A stretch of 64,000 nucleotides of DNA from a virus. The stretch covers positions 1-64,000 of the IMG/VR virus record IMGVR_UViG_3300036861_001106; one strand, given 5' to 3'. Every line of letters begins with the position of its first letter. Within the stretch, counting starts at the first letter, position 1. The translations under genes and the position numbers were made by a program. The notes beneath the pieces are model-generated. The model made no database searches. It worked only from the letters and a program-made list of their open reading frames with translations, and was not told the DNA's origin. Below, piece after piece: positions 2,781 to 23,740 of this stretch.

Positions 2781-3070
2781 CTTGCGCCTCCGTCCAGGTT
2801 CTTCCGCGGGCGCCCACTCCGCGGCCTGTCCTGCAGTCCTGCCACCCCCTCCGCGTTGAACCGGCGGCACCACAGCCGCACGCCGGTGGGACTCAAGCGG
2901 AGCTGCTCGGCCACGTAGTGGGGACCTGCGCCGGCGGTGAGGAGGATGATGGCGCGGGCGCGGCGGCCCTGGCGGGTGTCCCTTGCCACTCCCTGGTCGT
3001 AGGCCAGTGCGTGCAGCTCGGTGCGCTCAGCCGTGGTGGGCTGGCGTGGGGTGATTCGTCGCTCGCTCAA
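2777..3070 (-). CDS. helix-turn-helix protein resembling the IS630-family N-terminal HTH
   Basis: RARAIILL...VAEQLRLSPTGVRLWCRRFNAEGVAGLQDRPRSGRP; no DDE domain follows. Confidence 0.8.
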   Translation of the reverse strand: MSERRITPRQPTTAERTELHALAYDQGVARDTRQGRRARAIILLTAGAGPHYVAEQLRLSPTGVRLWCRRFNAEGVAGLQDRPRSGRPRKNLDGGAR

Positions 3071-3303
3071 CTTGTTCCTCCGTCCGTCCGTGTCGTTGCT
3101 TTACCTGTCATGTTGCTCGGCGGCGCTGTCAACGCCTCAAACCCGTCACAGGCGCACCCCTCAACCTGGCACGGCTCAGCCACGTCATCGACGTCGTGCT
3201 CAAGCCACAGGTGGCCACAGTGGCACAGCTCAGCGTCAGCTTCCTTGTCCACCTCGCTCCTCCTCACAGTCGTGGCTCCCGGTCGAGCCACCGGTCGATC
3301 CAC
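3067..3303 (-). CDS. small Cys/His metal-binding protein (start uncertain)
   Basis: CHCGH...H...C...CAC pattern. Confidence 0.5.
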   Translation of the reverse strand: MDRPVARPGATTVRRSEVDKEADAELCHCGHLWLEHDVDDVAEPCQVEGCACDGFEALTAPPSNMTGKATTRTDGGTS

Positions 3304-3537
3304 TCACGGATCATGGGGTGACGTCCTCCCTAGCGGGCAAGCCTCGTCAGAGTGGGGTCGCTCGCTCATCGACAGGACGCCCTTCCCGAGCAGTCACAGC
3401 AGACGTGCTTCGGGGCACACCGCAGACAGACGAGTCTGCGACATTGTCCCTGGCACTTCACGGTCTTCTGTAGCTCAACGATGCGCTTGCAGCAGGAGCA
3501 CGGGACCGGTTCTTCCATTGCACGCCCTTTCTTTCGG

Positions 3538-3930
3538 TCAGTCGTCCGTTTCCTTGCATGTCACTCTGCACTGCTCACAGTACCGGCGGCCGTCCGCCTC
3601 GAAGACCGGGGCCTTGCAGCAGGCGCTGGGCCCTGGCACCCAGTCAGCGTCACGGTGCCCGCAGGCGACGCAGTGCTTGGTGTGGAGGCTGAACCACTGC
3701 TCACCGCAGCGCGGGCAGTCGGCCTCCACGTTCAGGCTGCTGGGGTCGGCGCAGGTTGCGTGCACTGCCCCGTGCACCCACTCCCACCGCCGCGCGGTGG
3801 TGGGCGCCGCGAGGGTCGCGGCCAGCAGCAGCCGGTCACACCCGGCGCAGACGGCTCGCGCCTCCCAGGTGCTCGTGGCGCGGTTGCGGCCGCAGCACTC
3901 GCAGGTGCTCGTCGTGTCGCCCTCACTCAT
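3538..3930 (-). CDS. multi-zinc-ribbon protein
   Basis: several CxxC pairs; C-terminal SACCKAP...DGRRYCEQCR module. Confidence 0.7.
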   Translation of the reverse strand: MSEGDTTSTCECCGRNRATSTWEARAVCAGCDRLLLAATLAAPTTARRWEWVHGAVHATCADPSSLNVEADCPRCGEQWFSLHTKHCVACGHRDADWVPGPSACCKAPVFEADGRRYCEQCRVTCKETDD

Positions 3931-20275: not shown

Positions 20276-20860
20276 GTGGTCTACTACAACGAGATTGATC
20301 CCTTCTGCTGTCAGTGGTTGCGCAACCTGATTGAGGCTGGCCTGATTGCGAGAGGTGAGGTGGATGAGCGAGACATCCGAGATGTCACCTCCAGTGACCT
20401 GTGTGGGTTCACTCAGTGTCACTGGTTCGCTGGAATCGGCGGCTGGTCCTACGCCTTGCGTCTCGCCGGTTGGCCCGATGACCGGCCCGCATGGACCGGC
20501 AGTTGCCCTTGTCAACCTTTCAGCGCGGCAGGCAAGGGAGCTGGGTTTGCTGACGAGCGGCACCTCTGGCCAGCCTGGTTCCACCTCATCAGCGCCTGTT
20601 GCCCTCCAGTCGTTTTCGGAGAACAGGTCTCAAGTCCCATCGCGTTGAAGTGGCTGGATGTAGTTGTGATGAATTTCGAGGAGATTGGATATGATTTCGC
20701 AGCAGCAGACCTTTGCGCCTCTGGTGTCGGCGCTCCACATATCCGGCAACGGCTCTATTGGGTTGCTGAAAACCTGCACGTCGTGCAAGCAGGCAAAGCC
20801 GTTCAGCGACTATCGGAGGTACAGTGGCAGATGCCGGGACGGACTGCGTCCAATCTGTAA
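20276..20860 (+). CDS. C5-cytosine DNA methyltransferase, N-terminal part (motifs I-VIII)
   Basis: FAGIGG (I), SCPCQPFS (IV), GEQV (VI), APHIRQRL (VIII); stops before motif X. Confidence 0.9.
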   Translation: MVYYNEIDPFCCQWLRNLIEAGLIARGEVDERDIRDVTSSDLCGFTQCHWFAGIGGWSYALRLAGWPDDRPAWTGSCPCQPFSAAGKGAGFADERHLWPAWFHLISACCPPVVFGEQVSSPIALKWLDVVVMNFEEIGYDFAAADLCASGVGAPHIRQRLYWVAENLHVVQAGKAVQRLSEVQWQMPGRTASNL

Positions 20861-21299
20861 GCCATGCCAACGCGAGTACGAGAAGGGTTGGCGGTCCAAA
20901 ACCACGGCATATCGATCCGAGGCGCGTGCGAAGCGACGAGAGAAAGAGGAAGCCTACAAATCCGATTGGCTCATGAGAAACCGAGTAAAATATCTGGTTG
21001 CGGAGTGCCGGCGCAGGAGTGCGAAGAAGGGGCTATCGTTCAATCTCGACCAGTATATCCCGGAGTTGCAGGCACGGTTAGACATGGGAGCGTGCGAATT
21101 GTCAGGGATCCCGTTCAAACAGACAATGGGGCCGACGACCTATGACAGTCCATCCCTGGATAGGATCAATCCTTCGGAGGGATATCTCTACGGCAACGTT
21201 CGTATAGTATGTTACGCGATGAACTGCGCGCTAGGGAATTGGGGCGAAGAAGCACTGTTGACGATTTTGGAGGGTTGGCAGCGGAGGAGGAGCGAGTGA
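20685..21299 (+). CDS. Zn-finger/HNH-like endonuclease inserted in the methyltransferase locus
   Basis: KTCTSCK...ICKPC; CELSGIPF...SPSLDRINPSEGYLYGNVRIVC..MN; lower GC. Confidence 0.8.
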   Translation: MDMISQQQTFAPLVSALHISGNGSIGLLKTCTSCKQAKPFSDYRRYSGRCRDGLRPICKPCQREYEKGWRSKTTAYRSEARAKRREKEEAYKSDWLMRNRVKYLVAECRRRSAKKGLSFNLDQYIPELQARLDMGACELSGIPFKQTMGPTTYDSPSLDRINPSEGYLYGNVRIVCYAMNCALGNWGEEALLTILEGWQRRRSE

Positions 21300-21302
21300 C
21301 AA

Positions 21303-22481
21303 ATGGAGGAGACGCTCCAGGGCCGATTGACGTCGGCTCTGAAGAAACGAATCAACCAGGATACCGCATCGATCCTGTTCAAGCACCAATGGAAGACGCG
21401 GACGACGCCGAGAGACAGGATGATACCCGCCTTCAGAGCGTCTCCGCTCCGCACATCCGGCAACGACTGTTCTTCGTGGCCGACGCCGACGGCGGCGCTG
21501 GCCGACAAGGGCGTGCGCTCGACGGAGGGTGGTATACGGGAGGCGATGCGCTCGCGCGGGCCGGATCTGACAGCGGTCTCGGCGCTGTCGTCCTGGGCGA
21601 CCCCGAGCGCGCGGGACTGGCGCGACGGTCGCGCCAGTCCCGAGACGATGGAGCGGAACAGCCGTCCGCTGAACGAACAGGTGGTGCAGTTGGCGGGGTG
21701 GACTACGCCGTCAGCGACGGACGGCGAGCGTGCAGGAACGATGACCCCCGGAATGACAGGCAGCAGCCTAACACAGAAGGCGTCCTTGGCGGGATGGGCA
21801 ACTCCTTGCGCGCAGCCAACGAATACGTCACCCGAGGCGTTCATTCGGCGCAAGGACCGGAAACCGAGCGGGGCTGTCACGGACATCGGTGCGCAGGTCC
21901 AACTGGCGGTTTTTGGTCCGACGCTGACTGGATCTACTGTCGCGACGGCAAGTGGCGGCCAGTTGAATCCGGCACACTCCCGTTGGCTGCAAGGGTACCT
22001 GCCCGAGTGGGACGACTGCGCGGTTACGGTAATGCCATCGTCGCGCCGCTCGCCGCAGAATTCATCAAAGCCTACCTTGAAAGTCAGGAGGGAAGACTTG
22101 GAGCAAGCGAAGACCGACGATGAGGAGCTGGTCCTTGAGCCCGTGCGACCGTCGCGCCGTCGACGGCAGGAGCTGCCAGTCAACCCGCAGCCGCTGGGTG
22201 GGGCCAACATTCCGCCCAAGCCCCTGCGCCTTCGTGAGGGCGCCGTCCGGCACCTCAAGGTTGAGGGGACTGGCGACGAGTACCTCCTGACGGTGGAGGT
22301 GGGTGACAGCCAGGTGTGGGAGGTGCCCATCACCGAGGCGGTCAAGGCAGCCTTCGAGCGCGAGCGTGACCGGCTGCTGGCGGAGTTCAACCAGCGCGAG
22401 CTGGAGCTGTTGTCGAAGGTCAATGACCTGGAAGGGCAGGTGCAAGTTGCAAAGAAGTGGCTCAAGCGACTCCGAGGCTAG
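21303..22481 (+). CDS. methyltransferase beta-type subunit (TRD/motif IX) read in an alternative frame, open into a downstream coiled-coil ORF
   Basis: repeated W(P/A/T)TP units; GQLNPAHSRWLQGYLPEW; probable internal restart at TTG ~22098 after AGGAGG. Confidence 0.7.
   Translation: MEETLQGRLTSALKKRINQDTASILFKHQWKTRTTPRDRMIPAFRASPLRTSGNDCSSWPTPTAALADKGVRSTEGGIREAMRSRGPDLTAVSALSSWATPSARDWRDGRASPETMERNSRPLNEQVVQLAGWTTPSATDGERAGTMTPGMTGSSLTQKASLAGWATPCAQPTNTSPEAFIRRKDRKPSGAVTDIGAQVQLAVFGPTLTGSTVATASGGQLNPAHSRWLQGYLPEWDDCAVTVMPSSRRSPQNSSKPTLKVRREDLEQAKTDDEELVLEPVRPSRRRRQELPVNPQPLGGANIPPKPLRLREGAVRHLKVEGTGDEYLLTVEVGDSQVWEVPITEAVKAAFERERDRLLAEFNQRELELLSKVNDLEGQVQVAKKWLKRLRG
21389..22123 (+). CDS. 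C5 methyltransferase C-terminal part (duplicated motif VIII plus motif X); start uncertain
   Basis: SAPHIRQRLFFVAD...RVGRLRGYGNAIVAPLAAEFI. Confidence 0.7.
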   Translation: MEDADDAERQDDTRLQSVSAPHIRQRLFFVADADGGAGRQGRALDGGWYTGGDALARAGSDSGLGAVVLGDPERAGLARRSRQSRDDGAEQPSAERTGGAVGGVDYAVSDGRRACRNDDPRNDRQQPNTEGVLGGMGNSLRAANEYVTRGVHSAQGPETERGCHGHRCAGPTGGFWSDADWIYCRDGKWRPVESGTLPLAARVPARVGRLRGYGNAIVAPLAAEFIKAYLESQEGRLGASEDRR

Positions 22482-22485
22482 GCAG

Positions 22486-23103
22486 GTGCGTGTCACCGCT
22501 GAGCGCATCCTCCCCGATGGCGACGGCTTCGTGGCCTGCGTGCCGCCGGTGTACCTGCCGCGCAAGTCTGCGTTACTGGTGCGGTTGCCGGAGGAGTACT
22601 GGGTGGGTGCCCAGCGCATCGCAGACCTACAGGCGTGCTCGGCGCGACTTGAGCTACAGCGGGCTGAGCTGGCACAGTACGCACGGGGACTGGACAAGGA
22701 GCTGCGGGAGGTGCGGCGGCGCCACTCCTACCTCATCGCGTCCCTGAATCAGGTCACGAACGAGGGGAATCAGCTTGTGCTCCCAGTCACGGACCTGCGC
22801 CTTGAGATTCGGGCCCTGCTGTTCGCTCAGGGCTTTCACCCACGGCACCACCACCCGTGGTGGCACTGGCCCCGGTGGATTGGGTGCTCGCACTGTCTAC
22901 CCGCTGGCCTTGGGTTTGAGCGCGATCTCAACATCGTCCACGCAGAGATGGTGCTGTGCCGTGGGCTCATCAAGCTCTTCCACGAGCGCCTGCGGGCAGC
23001 CCTGCGCCCGGTCCTGCGGGGGGCACACCCAAACCTGCTGGCTGCGCCAGAAGCGGCACCCGTCGAGCTGGCCGCTGGCGTGCCAGTTCCTGAGGAGGTG
23101 TGA
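22486..23103 (+). CDS. hypothetical protein
   Basis: fills the operon gap; coiled coil plus His/Cys segment. Confidence 0.55.
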   Translation: MRVTAERILPDGDGFVACVPPVYLPRKSALLVRLPEEYWVGAQRIADLQACSARLELQRAELAQYARGLDKELREVRRRHSYLIASLNQVTNEGNQLVLPVTDLRLEIRALLFAQGFHPRHHHPWWHWPRWIGCSHCLPAGLGFERDLNIVHAEMVLCRGLIKLFHERLRAALRPVLRGAHPNLLAAPEAAPVELAAGVPVPEEV

Positions 23104-23104
23104 C

Positions 23105-23740
23105 ATCGCAGTCGTCTACACCACCAAGGAGAAGCTTGAGGATCTCCCTGAGCGGCACGAGCTGGGGACCTACCTGACGCCACCGGAGTTCGTGAAGTTG
23201 GGACTCACGGTGCTGGAGGGGGAGGTCACTCGCCATGCCGGTCACGTGCCGCCGCACCTCACCATCCTTGACCCGGGTGCTGGCGAGGGTGCCTGGGGGC
23301 ATGGCCTCGTGGTGGACTCCTTCCCACGTTCCAGGCTGCTGGTGGGGGTGGAGCGGCGACCCGTGGCGCAGCCACAGGGCTACGACAGGTGGGTCACGGC
23401 AGACTACCTGGAGTGGGCGCAGCGCTGCCCGCCGGCCGTCTTCGACCTCGTCGTGGGCAATCCGCCGTACGACGAGCCCAGGGGATCCTACTCTGCAGAG
23501 CTGTTCATCCGCGCCTCCCTGCGGCTGCTCAAGCCCGGTGGCTTCCTGCTCTTCCTGCTGAAGCTCACCTTCCTGCAGAGTAGGCGGCGCGCGGATGCCC
23601 TCTTCCTGGAGCACCCGCCGGTGTCAGTGACCGTGTGCAAGTCGCGGCCACGGTTCACGGGGCCTGGGAATCCAGATTCCTACGCATTCTACTGCTGGCG
23701 CAAGGGGTTCACGGGTGAGCCACGATTGGCATGGATTTGA
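23105..23740 (+). CDS. amino (N6A/N4C) DNA methyltransferase
   Basis: YLTP, LDPGAGEG (motif I), VGNPPY (motif IV); start appears to be ATC. Confidence 0.85.
   Translation: MAVVYTTKEKLEDLPERHELGTYLTPPEFVKLGLTVLEGEVTRHAGHVPPHLTILDPGAGEGAWGHGLVVDSFPRSRLLVGVERRPVAQPQGYDRWVTADYLEWAQRCPPAVFDLVVGNPPYDEPRGSYSAELFIRASLRLLKPGGFLLFLLKLTFLQSRRRADALFLEHPPVSVTVCKSRPRFTGPGNPDSYAFYCWRKGFTGEPRLAWI

What the first reader, a model, noticed from the sequence alone, without database searches (positions are those of the whole stretch)
20276..22481. Overlapping-frame C5 methyltransferase broken into pieces by an endonuclease, with no visible splicing element
Known: M.EcoHK31I-type enzymes encode motif IX on a beta peptide in an alternative frame inside the alpha gene. 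Seen: alpha motifs I-VIII stop at 20860. A lower-GC endonuclease ORF begins in the alternative frame, and its N-terminus VSALHISGNGS mirrors beta's ASPLRTSGNDC. The motif VIII region is then duplicated (APHIRQRL at ~20732 and ~21446), and two frames stay open together for ~730 nt, one ending in motif X (GYGNAIV) and the other carrying motif IX. I see no group I core or intein ends. Inference: a three-polypeptide methyltransferase, comparable to the mobE-split nrdA of phage Aeh1.
Basis: partly seen in the sequence, partly recalled or inferred. Interest (0 to 1): 0.75.

Follow-up and report, generated by a model that had tools for sequence, protein, structure and literature searches.

The report
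Homing endonuclease nested in two-frame methyltransferase
A phage cytosine methyltransferase gene that normally encodes two proteins in two overlapping reading frames has been invaded by a mobile endonuclease gene; in related phages one frame still reads straight through the invader, but here three stop codons break it, leaving a three-piece or a dying enzyme.

Summary

**The gene family.** It is a large phage family, with 574 or more IMG/VR loci. Alpha carries motifs I-VIII and X. Beta is read in the +1 frame and carries the conserved W-x-T-P repeat region and a motif-IX-like block. Both frames are open in all 49 intact loci tested, while the third frame has hundreds of stops.

**The insert.** An EndoVII/HNH-like homing endonuclease sits in the beta frame just after motif VIII. 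About 150 nt are duplicated around it. The upstream copy keeps the alpha reading. The downstream copy keeps the beta reading and gives beta a new Shine-Dalgarno (SD) site and ATG right after the endonuclease stop.

**Relatives.** About 30 loci carry the same endonuclease family inside the same gene, always in the beta frame. In 28 of 28 the alpha frame runs through the endonuclease without a stop. Relatives of the endonuclease outside the gene have a median of 11 stops in that frame.

**This window.** It is the exception, with three stops (20858, 21143, 21161) that are all silent in the endonuclease. Alpha is therefore really cut. A GTG at 21296 behind the shared SD could start the motif-X piece. 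I cannot decide between a three-chain enzyme and early decay. There is no intron or intein.

The parts
20276..20860 (+). Alpha-N ORF (194 aa): C5 methyltransferase motifs I, IV, VI and VIII, then a 30-aa unrelated tail. The GTG start overlaps the stop of the upstream RNase H gene (TGAgGTG).
   Evidence: It aligns to BcepC6B gp33 residues 4-166 at 61% identity, and homology ends after ..YWVA.
20382..20648 (+). Remnant of the beta leader in the +1 frame, closed by a stop at 20646-20648.
   Evidence: It aligns to residues 1-82 of the BcepC6B beta frame. In intact loci this leader is open but unconstrained in sequence.
20615..20767 (+). Upstream copy of the duplicated stretch (alpha motifs VI-VIII). 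The alpha reading is kept and the beta reading is lost.
20691..21299 (+). EndoVII/HNH-like homing endonuclease gene (202 aa) in the beta frame. ATG at 20691, with AGGAG 4 nt upstream. The first 25 aa are the +1 reading of motif VIII.
   Evidence: phrog_1035 7.8e-30 and phrog_3322 1.2e-25. Homologues are 41-63% identical. GC is 0.55.
20858..21163 (+). Three alpha-frame stops: TAA 20858, TGA 21143, TAG 21161. Each is silent in the endonuclease frame (TGT|AAG, TAT|GAC, GAT|AGG).
   Evidence: There are 3 stops against 7.3-7.8 expected from codon shuffles (P<=0.03) and 0 in 28 embedded relatives.
21283..21305 (+). Restart site. It holds the SD run GGAGGAGGAG, then GTG 21296 in the alpha frame (overlapping the endonuclease stop as GTGA), then ATG 21303 in the beta frame.
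   Evidence: In relatives the endonuclease stop is followed at once by the beta restart.
21303..22070 (+). Beta-prime: a new start at the LQxxL helix, W-x-T-P repeats and a motif-IX-like block at 21954-22010. The ORF runs on to 22481.
   Evidence: phrog_31772 6e-24 and phrog_1008 2e-19. More than 1274 database homologues, none with a Pfam domain. Residue 1 aligns to BcepC6B beta residue 75.
21306..21470 (+). Downstream copy of the duplicated stretch. The beta reading is kept. The alpha reading is lost except for the second motif VIII at 21446-21469.
   Evidence: This part of beta-prime is more divergent than any of 50 intact members (30 mismatches against a maximum of 26).
21296..22123 (+). 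Alpha-C: low-complexity linker plus GFW..CRDGKWRP and motif X GYGNAIV (22022-22042). The frame is open from 21164, and GTG 21296 is a possible start.
   Evidence: phrog_363 profile positions 176-318. Aligns to BcepC6B gp33 residues 150-321. No stops over 21303-21929 against 4.5 expected.

Best explanation
**What it is.** This is a phage C5 cytosine methyltransferase gene of a widespread two-frame family. Alpha is the catalytic chain, with motifs I-VIII, a junk linker and motif X. Beta is read in the +1 frame across almost the whole alpha gene. It supplies the conserved W-x-T-P repeat region and a motif-IX-like block, which is presumably the DNA-recognition part.

**What happened to it.** An EndoVII/HNH-like homing endonuclease gene has entered just after motif VIII, in the beta frame.

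- The roughly 150 nt that encode both alpha motifs VI-VIII and the start of functional beta are present twice.
- The copy upstream of the endonuclease serves alpha only.
- The copy downstream serves beta only, and beta restarts at its own SD and ATG three bases after the endonuclease stop.
- The endonuclease and the left flank have lower GC. They probably travelled together as a homing and co-conversion tract.

**How relatives cope.** Alpha keeps reading through the endonuclease in its own frame. It stays one chain with a long insert, so one stretch of DNA is translated in two frames for two unrelated purposes.

**What is different here.** In this phage the read-through frame has picked up three stops. 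Alpha-N (I-VIII) ends at 20860, and motif X can be made only as a separate chain.

**What I commit to.** With about even odds, an enzyme is still assembled from alpha-N, beta-prime and alpha-C. Alpha-C would start at GTG 21296, coupled to the endonuclease stop.

**Shown and inferred.**
- Shown: the anatomy, the family-wide dual coding, the nesting and the read-through in relatives, and the three stops.
- Inferred: homing, the alpha-C start, assembly and activity.
For: **Dual coding in the family.**
- In 49 intact loci, codon shuffles of alpha predict 20, 31 and 96 beta-frame stops in the three regions, and none is seen. Alpha, which is taken as an uninterrupted frame, has none either. The third frame has 123, 74 and 394 stops in the same regions.
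- This holds at GC 0.46-0.52.
- Codon-position entropy shows selection on alpha only over motifs I-VI. It shows selection on both frames over VI-VIII and over IX/X (for example a1 0.30, a2 0.17, a3 0.10). In the W-x-T-P blocks the beta wobble position is the most variable.

**The endonuclease.**
- Identity.
- The same endonuclease family is in the same gene and always in the beta frame.
- It occupies three positions: after motif VI, after motif VIII, and downstream of the gene.
- The L107, L095, L112 and L004 loci share this window's layout, with two motif VIII copies.

**Alpha read-through.**
- The alpha frame is open across the endonuclease in 28 of 28 embedded copies.
- 57 of 59 copies outside the gene have stops in that frame, with a median of 11.
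- The fraction of codon shuffles that stay open is at most 0.07.

**This window.**
- The three stops and the start signals.
- Duplication boundaries.
- The pieces are no more divergent than intact family members. The exception is the beta-only copy, which is freed from the alpha constraint.
- There is no other copy of the gene in the 109.5-kb genome.
Against: - Selection keeps alpha whole in every relative. This argues that linkage of motif X matters, so three stops here may mean loss of function.
- The 3-versus-0 split of stops between the endonuclease part and the alpha-C linker is not significant (P about 0.15).
- GTG 21296 is only 3-8 nt from the SD run. Its use is untested.
- At columns at least 90% conserved, the window has 8 (alpha) and 7 (beta) mismatches against a family median of 1. 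Most of these lie in the two single-purpose copies.
- Calling the beta block 'motif IX' rests on resemblance by eye to E. coli Dcm (RRLTPRECARLMGF).
- Four searches gave no support for beta as a methyltransferase part:
  - hhalign probability 0.06;
  - no Pfam hit;
  - a beta-prime fold model with mean pLDDT 64;
  - no Foldseek match.
- No close relative of this phage was found for a before-and-after comparison.
Confidence: 0.6

Rival explanations
1. The methyltransferase is an early pseudogene. The endonuclease insertion was first tolerated because alpha read through it. Read-through was then lost, the enzyme is inactive, and the open frames that remain have simply not decayed yet.
For: - 28 of 28 embedded relatives keep alpha open, while the window has three independent stops.
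- The stop count is about 40% of the shuffle equilibrium.
- No alpha-C start is demonstrated.
- The window has more mismatches at highly conserved columns than typical members.
- The phage carries at least one other methyltransferase-like gene, at 22775-23740.
Against: - Alpha-N, beta-prime and alpha-C are all open and within the family's divergence range.
- The alpha frame over beta-prime has 0 stops against 4.5 expected.
- An SD run with GTGA and ATG restarts is in place.
- The excess mismatches sit mostly where the duplication removed the second-frame constraint.
Confidence: 0.33
2. A single alpha chain is restored at the RNA or protein level, by a group I or II intron, an intein or split intein, or translational bypass or stop read-through.
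For: Endonuclease genes in phage genes often sit in introns or inteins. Another member of this family, EBPR siphovirus 2 gp44, carries an intein at motif IV.
Against: - No Rfam intron at E<=1.
- There is no non-coding room. The endonuclease ORF fills 20691-21299 and beta restarts at 21303.
- No Hint or intein domain is found, and only a 30-aa tail follows ..YWVA.
- Relatives keep the alpha frame open across the insert, which would be pointless if the insert were spliced out.
- Three separate stops across about 300 nt cannot be bypassed by any known mechanism.
Confidence: 0.03
3. The nuclease is not a homing enzyme. It is a functional partner of the methyltransferase, as in a restriction-modification or addiction-like pair.
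For: A nuclease and a methyltransferase lie in one transcription unit, and the association recurs in about 30 loci.
Against: - None of the 80 loci fetched with beta alone carries it.
- It sits at three different positions in or beside the gene.
- Decayed or truncated in-frame copies exist (L119).
- It has lower GC than its surroundings.
- Related copies lie in unrelated contexts.

These are all marks of a mobile endonuclease.
Confidence: 0.04

Closest known systems
M.EcoHK31I (alpha/beta C5 methyltransferase with beta in another frame of the alpha gene; PMC2836561)
   Same: The two chains are read from two frames of one gene. Alpha holds motifs I-VIII and X. A motif-IX-type block lies on beta.
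   Different: In M.EcoHK31I alpha also holds the TRD, and beta is a short peptide lying wholly inside alpha. Here beta spans nearly the whole gene (about 300 codons) and carries all the conserved sequence between VIII and X, while the alpha frame there is unconserved filler. Sequence relatedness to M.EcoHK31I was not tested.
Genes split by free-standing homing endonucleases: Aeh1 nrdA/mobE, T4 39/60/mobA (PMC2988022)
   Same: An endonuclease ORF lies inside a conserved enzyme gene with no intron or intein. Start and stop codons are tightly coupled. Uninterrupted alleles exist in relatives.
   Different: The host gene is dual-coding. The endonuclease occupies one of the two frames. In relatives the other frame reads through it, so the host chain is not split. 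A duplication separates the two frames. Only this window resembles the mobE-type split, and its activity is unproven.
Fractured genes with split inteins flanking a homing endonuclease (PMC2677866)
   Same: A gene is interrupted by a free-standing endonuclease gene in phage or metagenomic DNA.
   Different: No intein halves are present. The alpha-N tail is 30 aa and there is no Hint match.
M.AquI-type split C5 methyltransferases and artificial fragment complementation (PMC3404938; M.AquI recalled from my own knowledge)
   Same: C5 methyltransferases can work as separately made N-terminal (I-VIII) and C-terminal (IX-X) parts.
   Different: Those are two parts cut in the variable region. Here up to three parts would be needed, with IX and X on different chains read from overlapping DNA.

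Membership tests
C5 cytosine DNA methyltransferase (Pfam PF00145 / phrog_363) | Profile match above the curated threshold | tested here: met
   Alpha-N scores 56.8 bits against a cut-off of 22, and phrog_363 1.7e-64.
C5 cytosine DNA methyltransferase (Pfam PF00145 / phrog_363) | Motifs I (FxGxG), IV (PCQ), VI (ENV-like) and VIII (QxRxR-like) in order on one chain | tested here: met
   FAGIGG 20426, PCQPFS 20507, FGEQV 20615, HIRQRL 20738.
C5 cytosine DNA methyltransferase (Pfam PF00145 / phrog_363) | Motif X on the same chain as motifs I-VIII | tested here: not met
   Three alpha-frame stops lie between motif VIII and GYGNAIV. The feature is met in intact relatives.
C5 cytosine DNA methyltransferase (Pfam PF00145 / phrog_363) | TRD and motif IX between VIII and X in the same frame | tested here: not met
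   The alpha frame there is unconserved. The conserved block is in the +1 frame.
M.EcoHK31I-type alpha/beta enzyme | Beta is read from another frame of the alpha gene | tested here: met
   Both frames are open in 49 of 49 intact loci, with selection on both. In the window beta-prime overlaps alpha-C.
M.EcoHK31I-type alpha/beta enzyme | Alpha carries the TRD and beta is a short motif-IX peptide (PMC2836561) | tested here: not met
   The conserved part of beta is at least 246 aa and includes the W-x-T-P repeats. The alpha linker is not conserved.
M.EcoHK31I-type alpha/beta enzyme | Sequence homology to M.EcoHK31I, and both chains needed for activity | not tested
   No M.EcoHK31I sequence was on hand. 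Activity needs a bench assay.
Gene split by a free-standing homing endonuclease (Aeh1 nrdA/mobE type) | Endonuclease ORF inside the gene with no intron or intein, and uninterrupted alleles in relatives | tested here: met
   Intact alleles.
Gene split by a free-standing homing endonuclease (Aeh1 nrdA/mobE type) | Each host-gene piece is a separate ORF with its own start | tested here: inconclusive
   Alpha-N and beta-prime have starts. Alpha-C has only a candidate GTG 21296 behind the shared SD.
Gene split by a free-standing homing endonuclease (Aeh1 nrdA/mobE type) | The pieces reassemble into an active enzyme, and the endonuclease cuts endonuclease-free alleles | not testable with these tools
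   This needs expression, a methylation assay and a cleavage assay.
Fractured gene with split intein | N- and C-intein halves flanking the endonuclease | tested here: not met
   No Hint or intein hit at E<=0.1, and a 30-aa tail only.
Group I/II intron carrying an endonuclease | Ribozyme core around the ORF | tested here: not met
   Rfam at E<=1 finds nothing. There is no non-coding space, and the alpha frame is open across the insert in relatives.
EndoVII/HNH-type phage endonuclease | Profile match to a nuclease family | tested here: met
   phrog_1035 7.8e-30, phrog_3322 1.2e-25, phrog_3118 6e-10. No Pfam hit even at E<=1.
EndoVII/HNH-type phage endonuclease | Sporadic presence, and several insertion points in or next to one target gene (homing behaviour) | tested here: met
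   Absent from the 80 loci fetched with beta. Present at three positions in about 30 loci.

The most novel reading that the evidence does not exclude
A family of homing endonuclease genes has adapted to live in the +1 frame of a dual-coding phage methyltransferase gene. The host's alpha chain is translated straight through the endonuclease gene in another frame, and a short duplication separates the two host frames. This would be a way for a mobile endonuclease to sit inside an essential-frame gene without an intron, an intein or a split. I found no description of it. This window would then be the natural case in which read-through was lost and the enzyme works from three chains.
Probability: 0.45. 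Interest if true: 0.85.

Novelty: new variant of a known kind. Interest (0 to 1): 0.78.

Why it matters
Three points would interest people who work on mobile DNA, overlapping genes and methyltransferases.

1. **A long, widespread overlap.** The overlap is about 900 nt. Both frames are under selection, and the second frame is a Pfam-less 'hypothetical protein' family with more than a thousand members. Gene callers pick only one of the two frames in any given genome.
2. **A third way to host an endonuclease.** Introns and inteins remove the insert, and mobE-type insertions split the gene. Here the host frame simply reads through the invader. This gives a testable case of one DNA stretch translated in two frames for a parasite and its host.
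3. **Natural deletion and split experiments.**
   - The endonuclease-bearing alleles show that the first 75 or so beta residues are dispensable.
   - They also show that alpha tolerates inserts of 200-500 aa after motif VI or motif VIII.
   - This window offers a possible three-chain C5 methyltransferase, which is of use for split-enzyme design.

Tried and rejected
- **Intron.** Rejected (Rfam).
- **Intein or split intein.** Rejected (Pfam).
- **Sequencing frameshift.** Rejected as the cause of the break. The three stops are base substitutions, silent in the endonuclease frame. Simple frameshifted copies do exist elsewhere (L035, L046, L063).
- **Linking beta to known methyltransferase structure or sequence.** All attempts failed:
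  - profile against PDB sequences;
  - Pfam on 20 members at E<=10;
  - NCBIfam;
  - hhalign against E. coli Dcm;
  - AlphaFold2 model, mean pLDDT 64, with only residues 1-50 confident;
  - Foldseek against the PDB;
  - ESM Atlas, which returned only unnamed viral clusters.
- **Is alpha-C still under selection?** The split of stops between regions was inconclusive. Divergence at conserved columns was also inconclusive.
- **Close relatives of this phage.** None found through the neighbouring RNase H gene. INPHARED holds nothing above 75% identity. There is no second copy in the phage's own genome.
- **Endonuclease in bacterial genomes.** The scan of genome contigs found none.
The contexts of the closest endonuclease homologues (P0122-P0126, 51-62% identity) could not be read.
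- **Promoter and terminator scan.** It shows nothing above chance inside the locus.
- **Literature.** Searches found no description of a nested endonuclease or of this two-frame family. The library is incomplete, so this is not proof of novelty.
Full report
**1. What is in the window**

Frame 2 carries an ORF at 20276-20860. It is the N-terminal two thirds of a C5 cytosine methyltransferase (PF00145, 56.8 bits; phrog_363, 1.7e-64). Motifs I, IV, VI and VIII are all readable in the sequence.

Frame 0 carries three successive open stretches:
- **20346-20648**, closed by a stop.
- **20685-21299**, an EndoVII/HNH-like endonuclease (phrog_1035, 7.8e-30).
- **21303-22481**, which begins one codon after the endonuclease stop. 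It matches two PHROG families that are themselves annotated 'DNA methyltransferase' (phrog_31772, phrog_1008) but has no Pfam domain.

Frame 2 is open again over 21164-22123. It holds a second APHIRQRL (21446-21469) and motif X, GYGNAIV (22022-22042).

GC falls from about 0.64 to about 0.55 between 20500 and 21400. No intron or intein is detectable, and the three ORFs leave no non-coding room for one.

**2. The gene belongs to a large two-frame family**

Uninterrupted homologues are common in phages of Burkholderia, Xanthomonas, enterobacteria and others. There are 198 INPHARED records.
- In BcepC6B and PhiXhv-18 both the methyltransferase frame ('alpha') and the +1 frame ('beta') are open for more than 300 codons.
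- In PhiXhv-18 both frames are annotated.
- Beta-frame products are abundant in protein databases: more than 1274 hits, none with a Pfam domain.
- A pattern scan of IMG/VR found 574 or more loci.

In 49 intact loci, alpha was required to be one uninterrupted frame. The beta frame also has no stop from ten codons before motif I to motif X, whereas codon shuffles of alpha predict 20, 31 and 96 beta-frame stops in the three regions. The third frame has 123, 74 and 394 stops. The same holds for contigs with GC 0.46-0.52.

Codon-position entropy shows which frame is under selection in each region:
- **Motifs I to VI.** Only alpha is constrained (a3 1.0-1.7 bits against 0.3-0.8). The beta leader is therefore translated, or at least kept open, but is free in sequence.
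- **Motifs VI to VIII, and around IX/X.** All three positions are constrained, as low as 0.30/0.17/0.10.
- **The W-x-T-P blocks between them.** The beta wobble position varies most. The alpha reading there is unconserved low-complexity filler.

In this family alpha therefore supplies motifs I-VIII, a linker and motif X. Beta supplies the conserved region that in ordinary enzymes lies between VIII and X.

M.EcoHK31I is the known precedent for a beta chain in another frame. There, however, alpha keeps the TRD and beta is a small motif-IX peptide (PMC2836561).

Calling the GGQLNPAHSRWLMGxPxEW block of beta 'motif IX' rests on its likeness to RRLTPRECARLMGF of E. coli Dcm and on its position just before motif X. 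Profile, fold and family searches gave no statistical support.

**3. The insert and the duplication**

Measured against BcepC6B:
- Alpha-N homology runs to ..YWVA, at about 20767.
- The old beta leader runs to reference residue 82 and is then closed.
- Beta-prime starts at reference residue 75, exactly at the LQxxLxxRL helix. Its DNA in intact genes also encodes alpha motif VI.
- The alpha frame regains homology at the second motif VIII.

The stretch from alpha motif VI to just past motif VIII, about 150 nt, is therefore present on both sides of the endonuclease. The upstream copy has kept the alpha reading, and its beta reading changes RTSG to HISG. The downstream copy has kept the beta reading and lost the alpha reading except at motif VIII.

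At the DNA level only the motif VIII core is still recognisably repeated. The beta-only copy is more divergent than any of 50 intact members (30 mismatches against a maximum of 26). This is expected once the alpha constraint is lifted.

The start signals are as follows:
- The endonuclease has an AGGAG four bases before ATG 20691. It begins by reading the first motif VIII in the beta frame.
- Beta-prime has the run GGAGGAGGAG ten bases before ATG 21303.

**4. The same endonuclease family lives in the same gene elsewhere, with an unexpected feature**

Scans with an alignment of endonuclease homologues returned about 30 loci in which it lies within or beside this methyltransferase gene. Every copy within the gene lies in the beta frame. 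Three positions occur:
- after motif VI and the DLE..GY segment, with one motif VIII downstream;
- after motif VIII, with two copies of it, as in this window (L095, L107, L112, L004);
- downstream of an intact gene (L114 and others).

In the split forms the endonuclease stop is followed directly by the beta restart at the same LQxxL position. In others the beta leader, the endonuclease and beta form one ORF (L110, L119, L121, L124, L126, L127, L129, L133). One database protein is a fusion of the beta leader to the endonuclease (P0127).

The unexpected feature is that the alpha frame has no stop across the endonuclease in 28 of 28 embedded copies. This gives alpha ORFs of 465-830 codons, including loci with endonuclease GC of 0.41-0.46.

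Two controls support this:
- Copies of the endonuclease family in other contexts have stops in that frame in 57 of 59 cases, with a median of 11.
- Codon shuffles leave the frame open in at most 7% of trials.

I infer that alpha is translated through the endonuclease gene in its own frame, so that motif X stays attached. I found no description of such an arrangement, but the paper library is incomplete.

**5. This window is the exception**

Its alpha frame has three stops inside the endonuclease: TAA 20858, TGA 21143 and TAG 21161. Each arises from a T at an endonuclease third-codon position and is silent for the endonuclease. Three stops is fewer than the 7.3-7.8 expected from shuffles (P about 0.03). 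This looks like a formerly open frame that is part of the way to equilibrium.

Alpha is therefore truly cut here, and two readings remain.

**(a) A three-chain enzyme.** Points in favour:
- GTG 21296, in the alpha frame, overlaps the endonuclease stop as GTGA and lies behind the same SD run that serves beta-prime.
- The alpha frame downstream has no stop over 209 codons against 4.5 expected.
- All pieces lie within the family's divergence range.

**(b) Early decay.** Points in favour:
- Relatives uniformly preserve linkage.
- The 3-versus-0 distribution of stops between the endonuclease part and the linker is not significant (P about 0.15).
- The window has more mismatches at highly conserved columns than typical members. 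Most of these lie in the two single-purpose copies.

I put (a) near 0.45-0.5, (b) near 0.33-0.4, and recoding or splicing at a few per cent.

**6. Context**

The record is a complete 109.5-kb virus genome with terminal repeats. It holds no second copy of the gene. The locus sits in a co-directional block after an RNase H gene whose stop overlaps the alpha start. There is no internal terminator and no convincing promoter.

**7. Limits**

- No close relative of this phage was found.
- No multimer modelling was available.
- All statements about translation, assembly, methylation and homing are inferences.

Noticed in passing
L003:1490-3985 (EBPR siphovirus 2 gp44): A member of the same methyltransferase family is 832 aa long. 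An intein-like insert sits exactly at the catalytic motif IV (..SCPC | insert | CQPFS..), so the gene family hosts inteins as well as free-standing endonucleases.
   Followed up: partly
L107:4438-4893 and L095:4285-4794: A second, different HNH-type endonuclease lies in the beta frame between the motif-IX-like block and motif X. The Pfam HNH and HNH_3 hits are below threshold (E 1e-4 to 5e-3). Alpha again reads through it, giving alpha ORFs of 789-830 codons.
   Followed up: partly
L092 / L105 (same contig), around 2840-3710: An endonuclease copy is flanked only by the first 45 or so residues of alpha (YYNEIDP..) and by motif X (..LRGYGNAIV..). The whole methyltransferase core is gone, yet the alpha frame is still open across the endonuclease.
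   Followed up: partly
L114, L116, L123 (endonuclease about 320 nt after beta's last conserved block): The same endonuclease family stands free just downstream of an intact two-frame methyltransferase gene. This is the classical free-standing arrangement and a possible starting point for the nested forms.
   Followed up: partly
L119:2725-4227 and L110, L121, L124, L126, L127, L129, L133: The beta leader, the endonuclease and beta form one uninterrupted ORF. In L119 the endonuclease has lost its N-terminal Cys-rich part, which suggests a decaying or domesticated in-frame insert.
   Followed up: no
window 22071-22481: The beta-prime ORF runs about 140 codons past the point where family members stop. 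The extra part is coiled-coil-like and has no family match. It may be a separate small gene starting at GTG 22143, or a C-terminal extension.
   Followed up: partly
window 22775-23740: A second methyltransferase-like ORF with an ..VGNPPY.. motif gives weak Eco57I and MTS hits (E 1.6e-4 and 9e-3, both below Pfam thresholds). It is probably an N6-adenine enzyme.
   Followed up: no
G000:C1:90605-90979 (-), outside the window: A weak paralogue of the endonuclease (22% identity, E 3e-4) lies elsewhere in the same phage genome.
   Followed up: no
L035, L046, L063: These copies of the two-frame methyltransferase carry single frameshifts that swap alpha and beta segments between frames. They are either assembly errors or decaying genes.
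   Followed up: partly
L001 (Xanthomonas phage PhiXhv-18) 1367-2359 and 1449-2354: Both overlapping frames are annotated as 'DNA methyltransferase' in the public record. Sister phages annotate only one frame or call it hypothetical. Annotation of this family is inconsistent.
   Followed up: no
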